From a phage: 41,268 nt of DNA. Position numbers and translations under genes: made by a program. Below, one piece after another: positions 1 through 41,268 of the stretch (position 1 is its first letter; every line of letters begins with the position of its first letter). The stretch lies in the sequence record PX216937.1; one strand, 5' to 3'. The notes beneath the pieces are model-generated. The model saw nothing but the letters and a program-made list of their open reading frames with translations. It ran no database searches and was not told where the DNA came from.

Positions 1-198
1 AGGGACACAGAGAGGACTACATATAGTGGTCATAAGGTCCCACTAAGCACTACATCTAGTGGTAACACCCAAAGTTAACCCAATGTCTCACATAAGGATT
101 GACATTAAGTAAACCATAAGTTAACATAAGGGGTGGCACTCTTTGGGTGGAACTGAAGGAGGCCATAGGGGGGAACTCGGTGTGTATGAACTATGAGA
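1..198. repeat. Direct terminal repeat (copy at the phage right end); identical to 41071..41268
   Basis: Bases 1..198 (agggacacagagaggactacatatagtggtcataaggtcc...ctatgaga) recur exactly at 41071..41268. T7-like genomes carry terminal direct repeats of about this size. Confidence 0.85.
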
Positions 199-428
199 TA
201 CCCACTCAGATTTTTCTGTAGGATTCTTAAAGGGGTACATCAAGTATCTCATAAGGTTAACCACAGAGTGGCTATCATAAGGTGAGACTACGTGAGAGAC
301 CCTAAGAGACCCTGTAGACCATAGAGGGTACATAAGGGTTACTCTTAGAGTTGACTTCTTACAGTGATTATAGGGAAGATGTATATCGACCATAATCACT
401 AAGAGCGCGCTAAGCGCCAATGAGCAGT

Positions 429-584
429 CTAAGGAACACAAGTGAGTAGAGAACAAAGCAGAGTCTCCAGTTCACCGATGTGTTCAACACTAGATGCGAG
501 ACCAATGGAAGCAGCAAGTACAACGAGAAATTTATAGGTCACTCGATGCGTTGCTAGTGTCTTAAGCACGGATAGTAATCGCAT
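429..584 (-). CDS. 19.5: gp19.5-like small protein (51 aa, MRLLSVLKTLATHRVTYKFLVVLAASIGLASSVEHIGELETLLCSLLTCVP)
   Basis: Not in the ORF track (under 60 aa). Found by translating the minus strand downstream of phiOR; preceded by AAGGAGG; recalled similarity to T7 gp19.5 (HRVTYRFLVVL motif). Confidence 0.6.
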   Translation of the reverse strand: MRLLSVLKTLATHRVTYKFLVVLAASIGLASSVEHIGELETLLCSLLTCVP

Positions 585-742
585 AGAGCGTCCTCCTTGT
601 TATACTTGATGGTTACACTGATAGTTAGGGATGTAATTACAATTACTATCATCCCTCACTGTAAGGGTCTCTTAGAGTTAGTCACTAAGTATGCACTTTG
701 CATATGCAGTCTTTAAGTGTCTTTAAGTTGTCTTAGGGTGCC

Positions 743-765
743 CTTCCCAATAGTGAGTCGTATTA
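743..765 (-). promoter_or_regulatory. Phage RNAP promoter (phiOR-like), minus strand TAATACGACTCACTATTGGGAAG
   Basis: Top strand reads cttcccaatagtgagtcgtatta, the reverse complement of a T7-type 23-bp promoter; lies between gene 19 and gene 19.5 as phiOR does in T7. Confidence 0.8.
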
Positions 766-3157: not shown

Positions 3158-3427
3158 TCAGTTCAGTGTGTACTTCTCATCTTCAGTGAGACCGTCAGCG
3201 CCCACTAGGTTCTGGTACTCTTCGAGTCCATCTGCCAGGCCACCAAGGATGTTACGGTCTGGCTGTAACTTGGAGACTTGGAACTTGTGGCGCTCTAACA
3301 GTTTCCCGATAGCGTTGTACAGTTGAGGTGTGCGCTTATCATCATCCTGAAGGTCTTTCAGCATACGTTGAGCCATCTCAGTGTCCAGCATCTCAAGGAA
3401 TTGAATCAAGGACTTATCATTAGACAT
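3158..3427 (-). CDS. 18: Terminase small subunit (DNA maturase A)
   Basis: 89 aa, same size and position as T7 gp18. Confidence 0.85.
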   Translation of the reverse strand: MSNDKSLIQFLEMLDTEMAQRMLKDLQDDDKRTPQLYNAIGKLLERHKFQVSKLQPDRNILGGLADGLEEYQNLVGADGLTEDEKYTLN

Positions 3428-24483: not shown

Positions 24484-26622
24484 TTAGTGACATACCGCCC
24501 AATTCGGACCCATCTTTCCTTCAGTATCTAACTGACACCGGAAGTTAAAGTGGTCGCCTACCCAGCGCATAGCCTGTTGGGATACTTCGATTACAACTTT
24601 GGCAATCTCTTCTGTACGGCAAGCAAGCTGTTGCTCATCGTGAATCCACCCCATGAGGCAGAAGTCACCATCCCAGCCATGTTTGTAGCCCATCTCAAGG
24701 AGCATCTCTTCTGTCTTAACAATCCACAGTTTACAAATCAGAGCACCAGCAGACTGCAACAAGGTGTTCAACGCAGCGTGAGGACTACGGACGTGTACTT
24801 TACGACCATCCAAGCCACGAACCCAACGACGTTTCCAAGTTACTTTCTGTTCCCCGCCAACCCACTTAGAGTCCTTGACGAGTGTCCCTGTGATTGCTTC
24901 ACGTAACGCAGCAATAGCCGGAGTTTGCTCAAGGAAGTTCTTGATGAGTCGCTTACCGTCTTCGGCAGTACCACCAACAATCTGTCCAATCTTCGCAGCA
25001 CCAGCACCATAGAGGAACCCATAGATAAACGTCTTAGCGTTATCACGAGTAGGCAGACCAGCAGCCAATTGGTTCTTCGTATGGATGTCACCAGTGAGGA
25101 TAGTCTCAACGTACTCACCCTCATCATAACGATACATGAAGTGGCCCAAGCAGCGTAGCTCAAGGCCGGACGCATCCACACCAACTTGAATCCAAGGGTC
25201 TCCGATATAGCAAACTTCACCGTCGATAACCACCTTCTTCTTGTTATGCTCAGCACCGAAAGCAGCACGGCAAGGTTCACCATATGCAGCACGGATTGAA
25301 GGCACCTGTGCCACGTTAGGGAAGCTATGGGTTGCACGTCCAGTTACCGCACCGTTCGGGTTAACGCTTCCGTGAATACGACCATCATCTCCAATCATTC
25401 GGAGCCAGCCGTTATCACCTTCAGCAACCTGACCGATACGCTTCTGAATCATAAGGTATTCTTTAATCAACTCAATGCAACGCTGTGCATCCGGGTCGTC
25501 TACCTTAACGTGCTCTAAGACCTCATCGTCTACCTTTGGTGCACCACTAGGAGTGAACTCAACGGGCACCCAGCCAGCTTTGGTAAGCACACGGGTGATG
25601 TGGTCTCGGCTCGCAGGGTTAAACACAACGTGCTCAACCGGAGTATACGGAGCACCCTCAACGTAATCGCGGGTATCCAACTCACACGGTTCTAAGCCTT
25701 CACGTTGCTTCTTGTTCTTAGGCTTCTTAAAGATTCCACCCTGTTTCGGGTACTTCACACGAGGATACTTGGTGAGCGGCTTTCCGGTACGAGGATGCCT
25801 GAATGCTTCAGTACCGCCCTTAGCGGAGTACCATGAGCCAAACGTATTGGTTAACTCTACGAGTAGCTCACCACGTCTGCCAGCGAGTTCTGCGTAGAGA
25901 TTCTCCAAGGACTTGATGTCAATAGGAAAACCGTTACGTTCCATCTTAGCTAACAACCATGCAGCATCATGTTCCAGTTTGACAGCCTCAATGCTACCAT
26001 TCCAGAAACGGTCTGCTTCTGTGCTTCCAGCGGGTGTCTCGTTAGGGAAATAGAAAGTGTTACTACACAGTTTCTCAAAGAGTGCCTTGGTGACTACAAC
26101 GTCTTGAACGTTATATTCCATCATGTCTTCATTGAAGAACAGCCACTCCATCCCGTCTTCGTAGTCATCACCAGACTCTTCCAGTGACTTCTTAAAGTCG
26201 TCCTTGTACTCACCCTTCATTTCGCCTAAGCGGTAGCCCCATGCTTCCAGAGCGTGAGACCCAAAGCGACTACCCGGTAGCTTGCCAGCACGGAGCAGCC
26301 CAGCATCGGTGTCTTTGATGTTAGAGTAAATCAGTCGGGACATCACTAGGGTGTCCAAGACGTTCTCTTTCGGGAACTTAACGTCGCGGCCTAATAGTTT
26401 CTTGGCGAGCAACTCAATTACCGGGATGTCATACTTGTGACCGTTGTGGAACACAATGAGACCACCGCGAGCAACCTCAGCTTCGAGAGCATCAATGTAT
26501 GCCCCAAAGTCATCAGGTCGATAACGGATGTACTGGTCAGTTGTGTAGTCGTAAGTCACCGCACAGTGAAATTGACTAACGTTGTGCAGCAACCCGTTTG
26601 TTTCGATGTCGGATAGTAACAT
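24484..26622 (-). CDS. 5: DNA polymerase (gp5), family A with 3'-5' exonuclease domain
   Basis: 712 aa (T7 gp5 is 704); begins MLLSDIETNGLL (exonuclease Exo I motif DIE); synteny after gene 4. Confidence 0.97.
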   Translation of the reverse strand: MLLSDIETNGLLHNVSQFHCAVTYDYTTDQYIRYRPDDFGAYIDALEAEVARGGLIVFHNGHKYDIPVIELLAKKLLGRDVKFPKENVLDTLVMSRLIYSNIKDTDAGLLRAGKLPGSRFGSHALEAWGYRLGEMKGEYKDDFKKSLEESGDDYEDGMEWLFFNEDMMEYNVQDVVVTKALFEKLCSNTFYFPNETPAGSTEADRFWNGSIEAVKLEHDAAWLLAKMERNGFPIDIKSLENLYAELAGRRGELLVELTNTFGSWYSAKGGTEAFRHPRTGKPLTKYPRVKYPKQGGIFKKPKNKKQREGLEPCELDTRDYVEGAPYTPVEHVVFNPASRDHITRVLTKAGWVPVEFTPSGAPKVDDEVLEHVKVDDPDAQRCIELIKEYLMIQKRIGQVAEGDNGWLRMIGDDGRIHGSVNPNGAVTGRATHSFPNVAQVPSIRAAYGEPCRAAFGAEHNKKKVVIDGEVCYIGDPWIQVGVDASGLELRCLGHFMYRYDEGEYVETILTGDIHTKNQLAAGLPTRDNAKTFIYGFLYGAGAAKIGQIVGGTAEDGKRLIKNFLEQTPAIAALREAITGTLVKDSKWVGGEQKVTWKRRWVRGLDGRKVHVRSPHAALNTLLQSAGALICKLWIVKTEEMLLEMGYKHGWDGDFCLMGWIHDEQQLACRTEEIAKVVIEVSQQAMRWVGDHFNFRCQLDTEGKMGPNWAVCH

Positions 26623-26630
26623 TGTGTTTA

Positions 26631-26757
26631 CTCCTTAAGCGGATTGATAAGTGGGAACAGAGTGTCTGTCCCATTAGTGAGTTGTACTGATTGCTCAGAA
26701 GTCTTGACCATCGTCTTCTGGTTCCCAGCCGCTATCTCCATCTCCTTCATCTTCAGG
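26631..26757. repeat. 127-bp exact duplicate of 27911..28037 (gene 4 3' end plus phi4.3 promoter and Shine-Dalgarno), inserted directly upstream of gene 5
   Basis: Base-by-base comparison: ctccttaagcggattgataagtgggaacagagtgtctgtcccattagtgagttgtactgattgctcagaagtcttgaccatcgtcttctggttcccagccgctatctccatctccttcatcttcagg occurs at both sites. Confidence 0.9.
26666..26688 (-). promoter_or_regulatory. Duplicated copy of the phi4.3-type promoter (AGTACAACTCACTAATGGGACAG) about 45 bp upstream of the gene 5 start
   Basis: Identical to the promoter at 27946..27968; lies within the duplicated segment. Confidence 0.7.
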
Positions 26758-26868
26758 ATCAGGTCGATAACGGATGTACTGGTCAGTTGTGTAGTCGTAA
26801 GTCACCGCACAGTGAAATTGACTAACGTTGTGCAGCAACCCGTTTGTTTCGATGTCGGATAGTAACAT
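26696..26868 (-). pseudogene. Truncated second copy of the gene 5 5' end (first 37 codons plus RBS; exact repeat 26758..26884 of 26512..26638) fused in frame to the duplicated gene 4 tail (20 codons); potential 57-aa ORF
   Basis: 26758..26884 is identical to 26512..26638. Reading from the duplicated ATG gives MLLSDIETNGLLHNVSQFHCAVTYDYTTDQYIRYRPD followed in frame by [20 protein letters not shown] and a stop. Below the track's size cut-off. Confidence 0.6.
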
Positions 26869-26887
26869 TGTGTTTACTCCTTAAAGT

Positions 26888-27286
26888 TTAACGATGGGTG
26901 TATCCCATATAGTCTTTCGCGTTGATTACCTTCAGGTTCTCAGCTTTGATTCCAACGTTGTTACTGGTCACTAAGGTTCCATTAGGAGCAATGCGGGACA
27001 CTCGTGAGCACCAGCAGATGTTGCCAGCGACCGTGCGCACGTACCACAGAGAGGATGTCTCAGTTGATGCGCAGAAGTCACCTGCCTTAATGTGGGTCAT
27101 GGTGTCCTTATCGAACAGCTTGGTGTTTGCCTTGGCAGGTTTCACCCATTGACCACGAGAGCGAGTCCACCCTAAGTTCTTCAGGATGTGTATCGCAGAG
27201 TCACGAGCACATTCATACTCTTTGACATCAGCCAGTTCAGCTTGCAGCTTAGAGATTTCAGCTTCGATTACATTACGATTACGCAT
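26888..27286 (-). CDS. 4.7: Hypothetical protein at the gene 4.7 position
   Basis: 132 aa (T7 gp4.7 is 135); its ATG directly follows the phi4.7-like promoter. Identity by synteny and size only. Confidence 0.6.
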   Translation of the reverse strand: MRNRNVIEAEISKLQAELADVKEYECARDSAIHILKNLGWTRSRGQWVKPAKANTKLFDKDTMTHIKAGDFCASTETSSLWYVRTVAGNICWCSRVSRIAPNGTLVTSNNVGIKAENLKVINAKDYMGYTHR

Positions 27287-27293
27287 AGTGTTG

Positions 27294-27316
27294 TTCTCCC
27301 ATTAGTGAGTTGAATA
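27294..27316 (-). promoter_or_regulatory. Phage RNAP promoter (phi4.7-like), TATTCAACTCACTAATGGGAGAA
   Basis: Class-II-like variant of the promoter consensus immediately upstream of the 4.7-position ORF. Confidence 0.7.
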
Positions 27317-27319
27317 GAT

Positions 27320-27378
27320 TTCATACAAAAGTTAATCACGAAGGCCACCCGGAGATGACCTTTAGTTTAACTCTTTTA
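27320..27378 (-). promoter_or_regulatory. RNase III-type processing hairpin (R4.7-like)
   Basis: aaagttaatcacgaaggccacccggagatgacctttagtttaactc is one of a family of related imperfect hairpins (also 33741..33810, 34270..34400, 39787..39840, 40210..40265), placed between genes as T7 R-sites are. Confidence 0.5.
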
Positions 27379-27678
27379 GATTCCAGACTTCGCAGACAGC
27401 ACCATGCCCTCTTCGCCAGCCACTTTGGACAGCAGGAGTTCACGAGTCTTGTCTTCACCTACAGCCACAGTAGCAGCTACAGCAACGGAAGCCAGCAGAC
27501 GACCTGCCTGTGTGTCATCCAAAGTTACACGCTGTGTGTGCGCCTTGGTGGACTTATGGTCTTTCCAACGGTAGACCAGAGTGACCTTGCCATTACGGAC
27601 GTTGATGTGCACTCGACGAGCATACTGGTCGATGGTGTCGGACAGACGGATCGTGTTGCCGGGGAATTTAATAGCCAT
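27376..27678 (-). CDS. 4.5: Hypothetical protein at the gene 4.5 position
   Basis: 100-aa ORF between 4.3 and the R4.7-like hairpin; synteny only. Confidence 0.55.
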   Translation of the reverse strand: MAIKFPGNTIRLSDTIDQYARRVHINVRNGKVTLVYRWKDHKSTKAHTQRVTLDDTQAGRLLASVAVAATVAVGEDKTRELLLSKVAGEEGMVLSAKSGI

Positions 27679-27691
27679 AATGTGTCACTCC

Positions 27692-27904
27692 TTACAGGAA
27701 GAATTTGTTGAGGTCGGTTGCTTTAGCTGCAATCTTAGCAGCAGACGTTACGCCAGCACTTGCATCTTCAGACAGCAGACGGGCCTGTTTAGCCAAGCGT
27801 TGAGCCTGTTCAGCGTCCTTACGTGCCTTGTCGTTCAGACGTTTAGCTTCACGGAAGTACATTTTGACTACCAGCTTACCAAGAGTATTGATAAATTTAA
27901 ACAT
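27692..27904 (-). CDS. 4.3: gp4.3-like small protein (70 aa from the internal Met MFKFINTLGKLVVKMYFREAKRLNDKARKDAEQ...)
   Basis: Internal Met has AAGGAG 7 nt upstream and lies downstream of the phi4.3 promoter; the track's upstream extension overlaps the promoter and the gene 4 end. Confidence 0.65.
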   Translation of the reverse strand: MFKFINTLGKLVVKMYFREAKRLNDKARKDAEQAQRLAKQARLLSEDASAGVTSAAKIAAKATDLNKFFL

Positions 27905-27945
27905 TGTGAGTCTCCTTAAGCGGATTGATAAGTGGGAACAGAGTG

Positions 27946-27968
27946 TCTGTCCCATTAGTGAGTTGTAC
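27946..27968 (-). promoter_or_regulatory. Phage RNAP promoter (phi4.3-like), AGTACAACTCACTAATGGGACAG
   Basis: Promoter-like 23-mer between the gene 4 stop and the gene 4.3 start. Confidence 0.7.
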
Positions 27969-27975
27969 TGATTGC

Positions 27976-29785
<1,810 letters not shown>

Positions 29786-40794: not shown

Positions 40795-40869
40795 CCATTA
40801 GTTGAAACTTTAAGTAGTCTTAGAGTCTCTTTAAGTTAGACATATAGAGAAGGGCAATCAACATAGACC

Positions 40870-40892
40870 ATTCTCAATAGTGAGTCGTATAG
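40870..40892 (-). promoter_or_regulatory. Phage RNAP promoter (phiOL-like), CTATACGACTCACTATTGAGAAT
   Basis: Promoter-like match near the genome left end, upstream of the sigma70 promoters, as phiOL is in T7. Confidence 0.65.
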
Positions 40893-40959
40893 CTGTATGG
40901 TCTTTAAGGCTGGTCTAATAGTGGTAACGATAGGTGTCTATAGACTGAAGGCACCGACT

Positions 40960-41230
40960 GAAGGTTAACATAAGGATAGGCAGCCATAAGGATAGACATA
41001 AGGTTAGCGTAGCTAATAAGAGGTGACATAAGGTGTTAACTCTAAGAGGAAACATAAGGTGATTACAGATAGGGACACAGAGAGGACTACATATAGTGGT
41101 CATAAGGTCCCACTAAGCACTACATCTAGTGGTAACACCCAAAGTTAACCCAATGTCTCACATAAGGATTGACATTAAGTAAACCATAAGTTAACATAAG
41201 GGGTGGCACTCTTTGGGTGGAACTGAAGGA
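40960..41230. repeat. Array of CATAAGG heptamers (about 9 copies, with CTAAGAG variants) at the genome end; similar copies at 100..350
   Basis: Repeated acataagg/ccataagg/tcataagg at irregular spacing across the terminal repeat and adjacent unique sequence at both genome ends. Confidence 0.6.
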
Positions 41231-41268
41231 GGCCATAGGGGGGAACTCGGTGTGTATGAACTATGAGA
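41071..41268. repeat. Direct terminal repeat (copy at the phage left end); identical to 1..198
   Basis: Exact 198-bp identity with the window start. Confidence 0.85.

What the first reader, a model, noticed from the sequence alone, without database searches (positions are those of the whole stretch)
100..350. Arrays of CATAAGG heptamers at both genome ends, extending beyond the terminal repeat
Short CATAAGG-type repeats (with CTAAGAG variants) occur about 9 times in 40960..41230 and again in 100..350, spanning the repeat and the adjacent unique sequence. T7 has short repeat arrays near the concatemer junction implicated in DNA processing and packaging; these may be the equivalent signals, but their sequence is specific to this phage.
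Basis: partly seen in the sequence, partly recalled or inferred. Interest (0 to 1): 0.35.

Follow-up and report, generated by a model that had tools for sequence, protein, structure and literature searches.

The report
T7-style heptamer repeats around terminal repeat
The short CATAAGG repeats at both ends of this T7-like phage genome are real and far above chance, but they are this genus's version of the short repeats long known around phage T7's terminal repeat, and their role in cutting and packaging the DNA is still unproven.

Summary
The window is a T7-like phage of the genus Berlinvirus, written as the reverse complement of the usual map, with an exact 198-bp direct terminal repeat (1-198 = 41071-41268). 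The non-redundant 571-bp junction region holds 11 exact CATAAGG, against 0.1 expected (0 of 5000 shuffles). All 11 lie on one strand: 3 inside the repeat, 3 in unique DNA on the gene-19.5 side and 5 on the early-gene side.

On the gene-sense strand the word is CCTTATG. All 11 Berlinvirus relatives examined carry 5-14 copies in the same places and on the same strand, so the word is genus-wide, not phage-specific. T7 carries 13 CCTAAAG in the equivalent positions. Other genera use CCTGAGG/CCTTAGG, CCTAATG or CCATAGG, giving a general form CCT-N-A-N-G. The termini and the ATCTGT junction word are conserved with T7.

The repeats are dispersed, not tandem. They are not coding and not phased with the DNA helix. 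"CTAAGAG" is not a variant of them.

Their identity as the counterpart of T7's junction short repeats is near-certain. Their function is inferred only. The most likely role is redundant, polar cis elements that help the phage packaging and processing machinery mark the concatemer junction. A by-product of slippage is not excluded. This is a new member of a known kind and of low interest.

The parts
1..198 (.). Direct terminal repeat, copy at the window's left end. This is the right end of the conventional map, because the window is reverse-complemented.
   Evidence: Exact 198-nt repeat of 41071-41268. It aligns with the annotated 192-194-bp terminal repeats of BA14, Kvp1, FE44 and PcCB251.
41071..41268 (.). 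Direct terminal repeat, copy at the window's right end (left end of the conventional map).
   Evidence: The reverse complement of the window's end reads TCTCATAGTTCATAC..., compared with TCTCACAGTGTACGG at T7's left end.
31..131 (+). Three CATAAGG copies inside the repeat, at 31-37, 91-97 and 125-131. They recur at 41101-41107, 41161-41167 and 41195-41201. One-mismatch copies are CATAAGT at 115-121 and CATAGGG at 164-170.
   Evidence: The aligned positions are CCTTATG in 8, 10 and 7 of 11 Berlinviruses respectively.
250..337 (+). Three CATAAGG copies in unique DNA between gene 19.5 and the repeat, at 250-256, 276-282 and 331-337. This is the counterpart of T7's right-hand short-repeat cluster.
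   Evidence: Conserved in 11, 11 and 9 of 11 relatives. T7 has CCTAAAG, CCTAAGG and CATAAAG words in the same interval.
40969..41059 (+). Five CATAAGG copies in unique DNA between the repeat and phiOL, at 40969, 40985, 40997, 41027 and 41053. This is the counterpart of T7's left-hand short-repeat cluster.
   Evidence: Copy number in this block varies among relatives through indels of heptamer-bearing units: a 26-bp unit repeated about 5 times in FE44 and CarlSpitteler, and a 10-bp unit in PcCB251.
40945..40964 (+). Two CTGAGG-type copies, CTGAAGG (CCTTCAG on the sense strand), at 40945-40951 and 40958-40964. A third is at 153-159 inside the repeat. This is a second heptamer of the same polarity.
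   Evidence: The blocks GGCCTCCTTCAG and TTAACCTTCAGTCGGTGCCTTCAG are conserved in the alignment.
41064..41070 (-). Concatemer-junction word ATCTGTA, immediately outside the repeat (...GTGTCCCT|ATCTGTA). It is the counterpart of T7's class II RNA-polymerase pause/terminator word ATCTGTT.
   Evidence: Sequence. It is invariant in 11 relatives. BA14 and K11 records annotate this spot as 'concatemeric junction'. The T7 junction pause/terminator is described in bioRxiv 10.64898/2026.02.12.705533.
40870..40892 (-). Phage RNA-polymerase promoter phiOL (CTATACGACTCACTATTGAGAAT). It bounds the repeat-bearing region on the early-gene side.
   Evidence: One of 11 promoter words, all on the same strand. 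It aligns with the annotated phiOL of BA14.
743..765 (-). Phage RNA-polymerase promoter phiOR (TAATACGACTCACTATTGGGAAG), upstream of gene 19.5.
   Evidence: It matches the phiOR annotated in BA14, T7, T3 and K11.
429..584 (-). Gene 19.5 (51 aa), the last real gene before the junction.
   Evidence: ORF list. It is colinear with the annotated 19.5 genes of BA14, Kvp1, FE44 and P694.
99..127 (+). Sigma-70-like promoter TTGACA-17-TAACAT inside the repeat, also at 41169-41197. It points outward (leftward on the conventional map). Its -10 overlaps heptamer 125-131.
   Evidence: The -35 is invariant in 11 relatives. A leftward 'A0' E. coli promoter is annotated in T3's repeat and beside T7's. This is a consensus match only.
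192..253 (.). Inverted repeat TATGAGATAC / GTATCTCATA (192-201 and 244-253, 42-nt loop). It straddles the terminus cut at 198|199 and overlaps heptamer 250-256.
   Evidence: The arms are 7-10 nt in 9 of 11 Berlinviruses. T7 has only a 6-nt match at a different spacing, and none was found in two relatives. Its significance is uncertain.

Best explanation
What it is (shown; about 0.9). These are the Berlinvirus form of the short repeats that populate the concatemer junction of T7-group phages. Eleven same-strand CCTTATG heptamers (CATAAGG as written in this reverse-complemented window), plus three CCTTCAG, are scattered at irregular 12-125-bp intervals. They lie in the roughly 570-bp non-coding stretch from gene 19.5, across the 198-bp terminal repeat, to promoter phiOL.

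How it most likely works (inferred; about 0.35). [quoted passage not shown] The heptamers would be redundant, low-affinity, orientation-specific contacts for a phage-encoded junction-processing factor. The likeliest reader is an oligomer of the small terminase gp18 (encoded at 3158-3427, - strand), acting as an accessory to the pacB recognition site. In this model the field raises the local concentration of terminase and prohead at the junction and fixes direction. Cutting then occurs at TA|TCTCATAG (198|199) and at GTCCCT|ATCTGT (41070|41071), where the phage RNA polymerase coming from phiOR pauses, and the repeat is duplicated. Number and density of sites would matter, not exact position.
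For: Non-random and polar: 11 copies against 0.097 expected, 0 of 5000 shuffles, and none on the other strand even at one mismatch.

Homogeneous: all 11 CCT-N-A-N-G words in the junction are the same one of 16 possible.

Placement: confined to non-coding junction DNA bounded by gene 19.5 and phiOL.

Genus-wide: 5-14 copies on the same strand in every Berlinvirus examined.

Same architecture with a different word in other genera:
- T7 has 13 CCTAAAG.
- T3 and phiYeO3-12 have CCTAAAG and CTTAAAG.
- K11 has CCTGAGG.
- K1F has CCTACAG and CCATAAG.
- gh-1 has CCATAGG.
- In 47 T7-like junctions from IMG/VR the dominant words are CCTTAGG (14), CCTGAGG (13), CCTAAAG (8), CCTAATG (7) and CCTTATG (5).

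The motif persists while positions turn over. Heptamer positions inside the repeat are not homologous between T7 and this phage. The left-hand block gains and loses heptamer-bearing units of different lengths in different lineages.

Most copies sit in unique spacers, not in tandem units: Tandem Repeats Finder finds only two-copy scraps. They are therefore not simply a recent duplication.

Framework from the literature: gp18 recognises pacB in the concatemer and gp19 cuts at pacC (PMC9860248).
Against: No binding or genetic evidence exists for any factor.

Heptamer columns are only slightly better conserved than spacers among 11 close relatives (0.892 against 0.839 identity; permutation p = 0.16).

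There is no helical phasing, as ordered wrapping might predict (Rayleigh p >= 0.5 at 10-11 bp in the window).

Copy number from 7 to 14 is tolerated, and individual copies are lost in some relatives.

gp18 is strongly conserved across genera that use different words (window 70-72% identical to T7, T3 and K11). Its match with heptamer type (T7-T3 92%) cannot be separated from linkage, because gp18.5 shows the same pattern.

From my own recollection, not from a held paper: plasmid-transduction deletion studies of T7 and T3 mapped the essential packaging determinants to sequences at or in the terminal repeat plus a phage promoter. No requirement for the flanking short repeats was ever demonstrated.
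Confidence: 0.55

Rival explanations
1. Selectively neutral by-product. Replication slippage and unequal recombination in non-coding junction DNA keep seeding heptamer-bearing units. Gene conversion between the adjacent clusters in concatemers keeps them uniform. Polarity follows automatically from tandem duplication.
For: Lineage-specific expansions exist: a 26-bp unit repeated about 5 times in FE44 and CarlSpitteler, a 10-bp unit in PcCB251, and a 26-bp unit in phage Berlin. Copy number varies from 7 to 14. The conservation excess is weak (p = 0.16). There is no phasing.
Against: In this window most copies lie in unique spacers with no tandem structure. The same field architecture is kept in at least six genera that have diverged in the word itself. 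Exact copies outnumber one-mismatch copies 11 to 2, and 2 is about what chance gives (1.1 per 571 nt); long-term neutral decay would not leave that ratio. The three copies in the gene-19.5-side block are present in 9-11 of 11 relatives.
Confidence: 0.22
2. Replication or repeat-duplication aids. The heptamers would act as pause, priming or loading sites for the replisome (gp4 primase-helicase, gp5) or for RNA polymerase. These would help copy the single terminal repeat of the concatemer into two.
For: The clusters bracket exactly the segment that must be duplicated. The first heptamer starts 12 nt past the ATCTGT pause word, compared with 15 nt in T7. An inverted repeat straddles the terminus cut.
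Against: The heptamer does not contain the T7 primase recognition core GTC (established knowledge of gp4). It acquires one only through variable flanks in 2 of 11 copies (read). It does not resemble the class II pause word. The inverted repeat is short and was not found at this spacing in T7 or in two relatives.
Confidence: 0.13
3. Transcription signals. The heptamers would be parts of host-polymerase promoters (the outward 'A0'-type promoter), or would act as RNA motifs in the phiOR read-through transcript.
For: One heptamer overlaps the -10 of a TTGACA-17-TAACAT match inside the repeat. A0 promoters are annotated in the same area of T3 and T7.
Against: Only 1 of 11 copies is so placed. CATAAG lacks the critical final T of a -10 element. 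Promoter-like matches are no more frequent than in shuffles (3 against 2.5, and 1 against 2.1). There are no Rfam matches.
Confidence: 0.05
4. Coding repeats. The copies at 121-456 would lie in a real gene: the 111-aa ORF annotated as 'unknown product' in BA14 and as a hypothetical protein in FE44.
For: An ORF is open at 121-456 on the - strand. Equivalent CDSs are annotated in BA14 and FE44.
Against: The open frame is not conserved. It is truncated to 34-84 codons, or ends well before the repeat, in Kvp1, PcCB251, WW1, S523, DS_BP2 and pEa57, and its extent differs among the phages where it stays open. Heptamer spacings are not multiples of three. The ORF would run off the physical end of the virion DNA.
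Confidence: 0.02

Closest known systems
Short repeated sequences flanking the terminal repetition of phage T7 (called SRL and SRR in Dunn & Studier 1983, as I recall; that paper is not held here)
   Same: Same interval (gene 19.5 - terminal repeat - phiOL) and the same single polarity on the gene-sense strand. Copies lie inside and on both sides of the repeat, at irregular spacing with frequent 12-13 and 26-bp steps. The number is similar (13 against 11). The conserved neighbours are the same: AAAAATCTGAGTG..TA|TCTCA.AGT at one cut and GTGTCCCT|ATCTGT at the other.
   Different: The word is CCTTATG, not CCTAAAG, differing at positions 4 and 6. Positions inside the repeat are not homologous. 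The repeat is 198 bp against 160 bp. The junction word is ATCTGTA, not ATCTGTT.
The same heptamer field in other Berlinvirus genomes (BA14, Kvp1, FE44, P694, Berlin and others)
   Same: Identical word and strand, and largely identical aligned positions. The flanks are 92-96% identical over 1-900.
   Different: Only copy number and spacer indels differ in the early-gene-side block. No held paper or database record annotates the heptamers themselves.
Multi-site small-terminase recognition regions of other phages (lambda cosB R-sites, SPP1 pacL/pacR boxes); established knowledge, not tested here
   Same: Several short, similar words are clustered next to the terminase cutting site. This is the functional analogy behind the proposed mechanism.
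   Different: Those sites are longer, fewer and experimentally shown to bind the small terminase. Here no binding is known, and the sites lie on both sides of two cuts.
T7 concatemer-junction class II pause/terminator (ATCTGTT)
   Same: It lies at the repeat boundary within the heptamer field and is conserved here as ATCTGTA.
   Different: It is a distinct single-copy element. The heptamers do not resemble it.

Membership tests
T7-group concatemer-junction short repeats (T7 SRL/SRR type) | The host genome is a T7-like phage with an exact short direct terminal repeat and conserved termini. | tested here: met
   198-bp exact repeat. Berlinvirus relatives are 92-96% identical. Termini TCTCATAGTT... 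and ...CTCTGTGTCCCT are present, and ATCTGT lies next to the repeat. There are 11 T7-type promoters, all on one strand.
T7-group concatemer-junction short repeats (T7 SRL/SRR type) | The repeats lie in the non-coding DNA between the last late gene (19.5) and phiOL, inside the terminal repeat and in unique DNA on both sides. | tested here: met
   There are 3 + 3 + 5 copies at the listed coordinates. The bounds are gene 19.5 at 429-584 and phiOL at 40870-40892. The ORF over the region is not conserved.
T7-group concatemer-junction short repeats (T7 SRL/SRR type) | A heptamer of the form CCT-N-A-N-G on the gene-sense strand, all copies in one orientation. | tested here: met
   CCTTATG occurs 11 times on the sense strand and 0 times on the other. 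The form was derived from T7, T3, K11 and 47 IMG/VR junctions.
T7-group concatemer-junction short repeats (T7 SRL/SRR type) | Many copies (about 10 per junction), far above chance, at irregular spacing. | tested here: met
   11 copies against 0.097 expected. Spacings run from 12 to 125 bp.
T7-group concatemer-junction short repeats (T7 SRL/SRR type) | A demonstrated role in concatemer processing or packaging. | not testable with these tools
Tandem repeat / microsatellite array | Head-to-tail copies of one unit. | tested here: not met
   Tandem Repeats Finder at minimum score 30 finds only arrays of 1.9-2.5 copies with scores of 45 or less. The heptamers are separated by unique spacers.
Small-terminase binding-site cluster (lambda cosB / SPP1 pac type) | Sequence-specific binding of the small terminase to the repeated words. 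| not testable with these tools
   Only indirect data are available. The gp18 identity pattern fits heptamer type but equally fits linkage.
Replication-origin iterons | Direct repeats of about 17-22 bp bound by a cognate initiator encoded nearby, next to an AT-rich unwinding region. | tested here: not met
   The units are 7 bp. No initiator gene is adjacent; the neighbours are gene 19.5, gene 19 and the early promoters. T7-group origins are promoter-driven (established knowledge).

The most novel reading that the evidence does not exclude
Positions 4 and 6 of the CCT-N-A-N-G heptamer would be a lineage-specific code: AA in T7 and T3, TT in Berlinvirus, AT in another lineage, GG or TG in Przondovirus. 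A co-evolving phage protein, most plausibly small terminase gp18, would read it. Each genus of T7-like phages would then have a private concatemer-junction identity, which would stop co-infecting relatives from packaging each other's DNA. Within a genome the field is strikingly uniform (11 of 11 identical here), and one IMG/VR junction (L049) mixes CCTAATG (7 copies) with CCTTATG (3 copies), which could be a switch in progress.
Probability: 0.12. Interest if true: 0.55.

Novelty: new member of a known kind. Interest (0 to 1): 0.22.

Why it matters
[quoted passage not shown] The heptamer field is the most conspicuous unexplained sequence feature of that junction. If it is functional, it gives a simple handle for mutation and swap experiments. 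It would also be relevant to engineered T7-family transducing particles and to biocontainment designs that rely on a defined packaging signal (PMC9860248). For this window in particular, the result mainly confirms that the genome ends are correctly placed and are typical of the genus.

Tried and rejected
1. Chance or base composition: rejected.

2. 'CTAAGAG is a variant': rejected. It occurs on both strands and is not enriched window-wide.

3. Tandem array: rejected.

4. Coding repeats in ORF 121-456: rejected, because the frame is not conserved.

5. Helical phasing: none.

6. Known RNA family: none in the whole window.

7. Column-conservation test, heptamer against spacer, in 11 relatives: the direction is as expected but not significant (p = 0.16). 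The set is too closely related.

8. A second IMG/VR scan to widen the Berlinvirus set gave only known isolates plus two unrelated chance hits.

9. gp18, gp19 and gp18.5 identity matrices as a covariation test: uninformative. T7 and T3 share the whole late-right region, so linkage explains the pattern.

10. Primase-site idea: the heptamer lacks GTC.

11. Host -10 element idea: only one copy overlaps a promoter-like match.

12. Literature: eight full-text searches and several direct look-ups found no held paper that describes these repeats in T7 or in Berlinviruses. Dunn & Studier 1983, Chung & Hinkle 1990, the phiYeO3-12 and phiA1122 genome papers and Casjens & Gilcrease 2009 are not held. Searches for the bare heptamers and for 'pacB' returned only primer lists and PacBio papers.

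Full report
WHAT THE WINDOW IS

Every large ORF is on the - strand, and 11 T7-type promoter words all read on the - strand. The ends match Berlinvirus phages (BA14, Kvp1, FE44, P694 and others) at 92-96% identity, on the opposite strand of records deposited in the standard orientation. The window is therefore a complete T7-like genome written as the reverse complement of the conventional map.

Positions 1-198 and 41071-41268 are an exact 198-bp direct terminal repeat. Relatives have annotated repeats of 192-194 bp. Read on the gene-sense strand, the genome begins TCTCATAGTTCATAC (T7: TCTCACAGTGTACGG). It ends ...CTCTCTGTGTCCCT, as in T7.

CHECKING THE OBSERVATION

CATAAGG occurs 22 times in the window against 3.97 +/- 1.81 expected. 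Fourteen of these are in the two ends. Counting the repeat once leaves 11 copies in 571 nt.
- Dinucleotide shuffles of that same 571 nt give a mean of 0.097 and a maximum of 3. None of 5000 reaches 11.
- The commonest 7-mer of a shuffle reaches 2.44 on average and 6 at most, so the result survives choosing the word after looking.
- The interior rate predicts 0.09 copies.
- All copies, and both one-mismatch copies (CATAAGT, CATAGGG), are on the + strand. None is on the - strand.

Three copies lie inside the repeat (31, 91, 125). Three lie in unique DNA beside it (250, 276, 331). Five lie in unique DNA beside the other copy (40969, 40985, 40997, 41027, 41053).

That word is on both strands and is not enriched over the window (9 against 5.6 expected). 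Three same-strand CTGAAGG copies (CCTTCAG on the sense strand) are a better second member.

ANATOMY IN THE CONCATEMER

Replicating T7-group DNA carries one repeat copy between genomes (established knowledge; PMC10438801). The three clusters are therefore contiguous in the concatemer:

gene 19 (853-2613) - phiOR (743-765) - gene 19.5 (429-584) - three heptamers - cut - repeat with three heptamers - cut - ATCTGTA - five heptamers plus two CCTTCAG - phiOL (40870-40892) - early promoters

Further properties of the region:
- It is non-coding. The 111-aa ORF at 121-456, annotated in BA14 and FE44, is not kept open in six relatives.
- The copies are dispersed, not tandem.
- Spacings run from 12 to 125 bp with recurrent 26-bp steps and no helical phasing.
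- No Rfam family matches.

RELATIVES

On the sense strand the word is CCTTATG. Every Berlinvirus examined has 5-14 copies, never on the other strand.

In an 11-genome alignment the copies are kept at the same columns in 5-11 of 11 genomes. The gene-19.5-side copies are the best kept, at 9-11 of 11. The early-gene-side block changes copy number through indels of heptamer-bearing units of different lengths. Heptamer columns are only modestly more conserved than spacers (0.892 against 0.839; permutation p = 0.16). The set is too closely related to say more.

T7 carries 13 CCTAAAG in the equivalent places: two in the right-hand unique DNA, three in the repeat and eight in the left-hand block. Other phages use:
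- T3 and phiYeO3-12: CCTAAAG and CTTAAAG
- K11: CCTGAGG
- K1F: CCTACAG and CCATAAG
- gh-1: CCATAGG

A scan of IMG/VR with the junction word TGTGTCCCTATCTGT returned 47 T7-like junctions. Their dominant words are CCTTAGG (14), CCTGAGG (13), CCTAAAG (8), CCTAATG (7) and CCTTATG (5). Seventy-three unrelated chance hits average 0.5 such words.

The general form is CCT-N-A-N-G, with lineage-specific bases at positions 4 and 6. In this window all 11 such words are the same one of 16 possible. Heptamer positions inside the repeat are not homologous between T7 and this phage. The motif and its polarity are maintained while individual sites turn over.

HOW IT LIKELY WORKS

Shown: the field is non-random and polar, confined to the junction, genus-wide, and paralleled across the subfamily.

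Inferred: it is a set of redundant cis contacts for a phage-encoded junction-processing factor. The literature framework is that small terminase gp18 recognises pacB in the concatemer and gp19 cuts at pacC (PMC9860248). A multi-site polar field around both cuts fits an accessory recruitment and orientation role for an oligomeric small terminase.

The evidence against is substantial:
- There are no binding data.
- The site-level conservation excess is weak.
- There is no phasing.
- Copy-number variation is tolerated.
- gp18 is 70-72% identical between genera that use different words. Its agreement with heptamer type (T7-T3 92%) is matched by the neighbouring gp18.5 (91%), so linkage explains it equally well.
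- As I recall, classic deletion analyses never showed a requirement for these repeats.

The estimates are identity about 0.9 and this mechanism about 0.35. The main rival, at about 0.2, is a neutral slippage and gene-conversion by-product. Against it stand the unique spacers, the 11:2 ratio of exact to one-off copies and retention of the architecture in at least six genera. Aids to replication or repeat duplication, transcription signals and coding repeats are less likely.

COMPARISON AND NOVELTY

This is the same kind of element as the short repeats described around T7's terminal repetition (Dunn & Studier 1983, from memory). It meets every sequence-level defining feature tested. The word itself is not unique to this phage.

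No held paper or database record annotates the heptamers in Berlinviruses. The cross-genus CCT-N-A-N-G pattern may be a useful summary, but it is not surprising to a T7 specialist. The verdict is a new member of a known kind, of low interest. The underlying open question, what these repeats do, remains real (PMC13595956).

Noticed in passing
window 26512-28038: There are two pairs of exact 127-nt repeats: A = 26512-26638 = 26758-26884, and B = 26631-26757 = 27912-28038. Compared with phage 285P, an extra 246 nt joins the 3' end of gene 4 directly to the 5' end of gene 5. This junction sits beside the full-length 4.2-4.7 region. It looks like a 1035-bp deletion-variant junction stitched into the assembly. 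Exactly 127 nt is the largest k of common de Bruijn assemblers, so this is probably an assembly artefact from a mixed population, and the true genome would be about 246 bp shorter.
   Followed up: partly
window 711-727, 40808-40835, 40902-40908: A second short word, CTTAAAG on the sense strand (CTTTAAG on +), sits just downstream of both phiOR and phiOL and just upstream of phiOL. T7 has it in the same places. This word is conserved between the genera, whereas the repeat-flanking heptamer is not. Window-wide there are 27 copies against 4.8 expected; many of the opposite-strand copies lie upstream of genes.
   Followed up: partly
window 192-201 / 244-253: A perfect 10-nt inverted repeat (TATGAGATAC / GTATCTCATA, 42-nt loop) straddles the terminus cut at 198|199 and overlaps a heptamer. 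The arms are 7-10 nt in 9 of 11 Berlinviruses. T7 has only a 6-nt match at a different spacing, and none was found in pEa_SNUABM_57 or CarlSpitteler. It might relate to the hairpin intermediates proposed for T7 concatemer processing, or it might be chance.
   Followed up: partly
window 99-127 (+), repeated at 41169-41197: A sigma-70-like promoter TTGACA-17-TAACAT lies inside the terminal repeat and points out of the genome end. Its -35 is invariant in 11 relatives. It is comparable in place and direction to the 'A0 (leftward)' promoters annotated in T3 and T7.
   Followed up: partly
window 121-456 (-): This 111-aa ORF corresponds to the CDSs annotated as 'unknown product' in BA14 and as a hypothetical protein in FE44. 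The frame is not conserved among relatives, and the ORF would run across the physical genome end. It is probably a mis-annotation in those records.
   Followed up: yes
window 41064-41070 (-): The concatemer-junction pause word is ATCTGTA in all Berlinviruses examined, and also in K1F and gh-1. In T7, T3 and K11 it is ATCTGTT, which is described as a strictly conserved seven-base class II signal for T7 RNA polymerase.
   Followed up: no
L049 (IMGVR_UViG_2974581333_000001), junction near 422-436: This T7-like junction mixes two heptamer types: CCTAATG (7 copies) and CCTTATG (3 copies). It is the only clear mixture seen outside the Przondovirus CCTGAGG/CCTTAGG pair.
   Followed up: no
L104 (IMG/VR locus), downstream of the junction word: After the junction word comes a long tandem array of a unit of about 21 bp (AAGGAACCACTGAGTATCATTG; the 7-mer AGGAACC occurs 12 times). 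It replaces the usual dispersed heptamers and is an atypical junction architecture.
   Followed up: no
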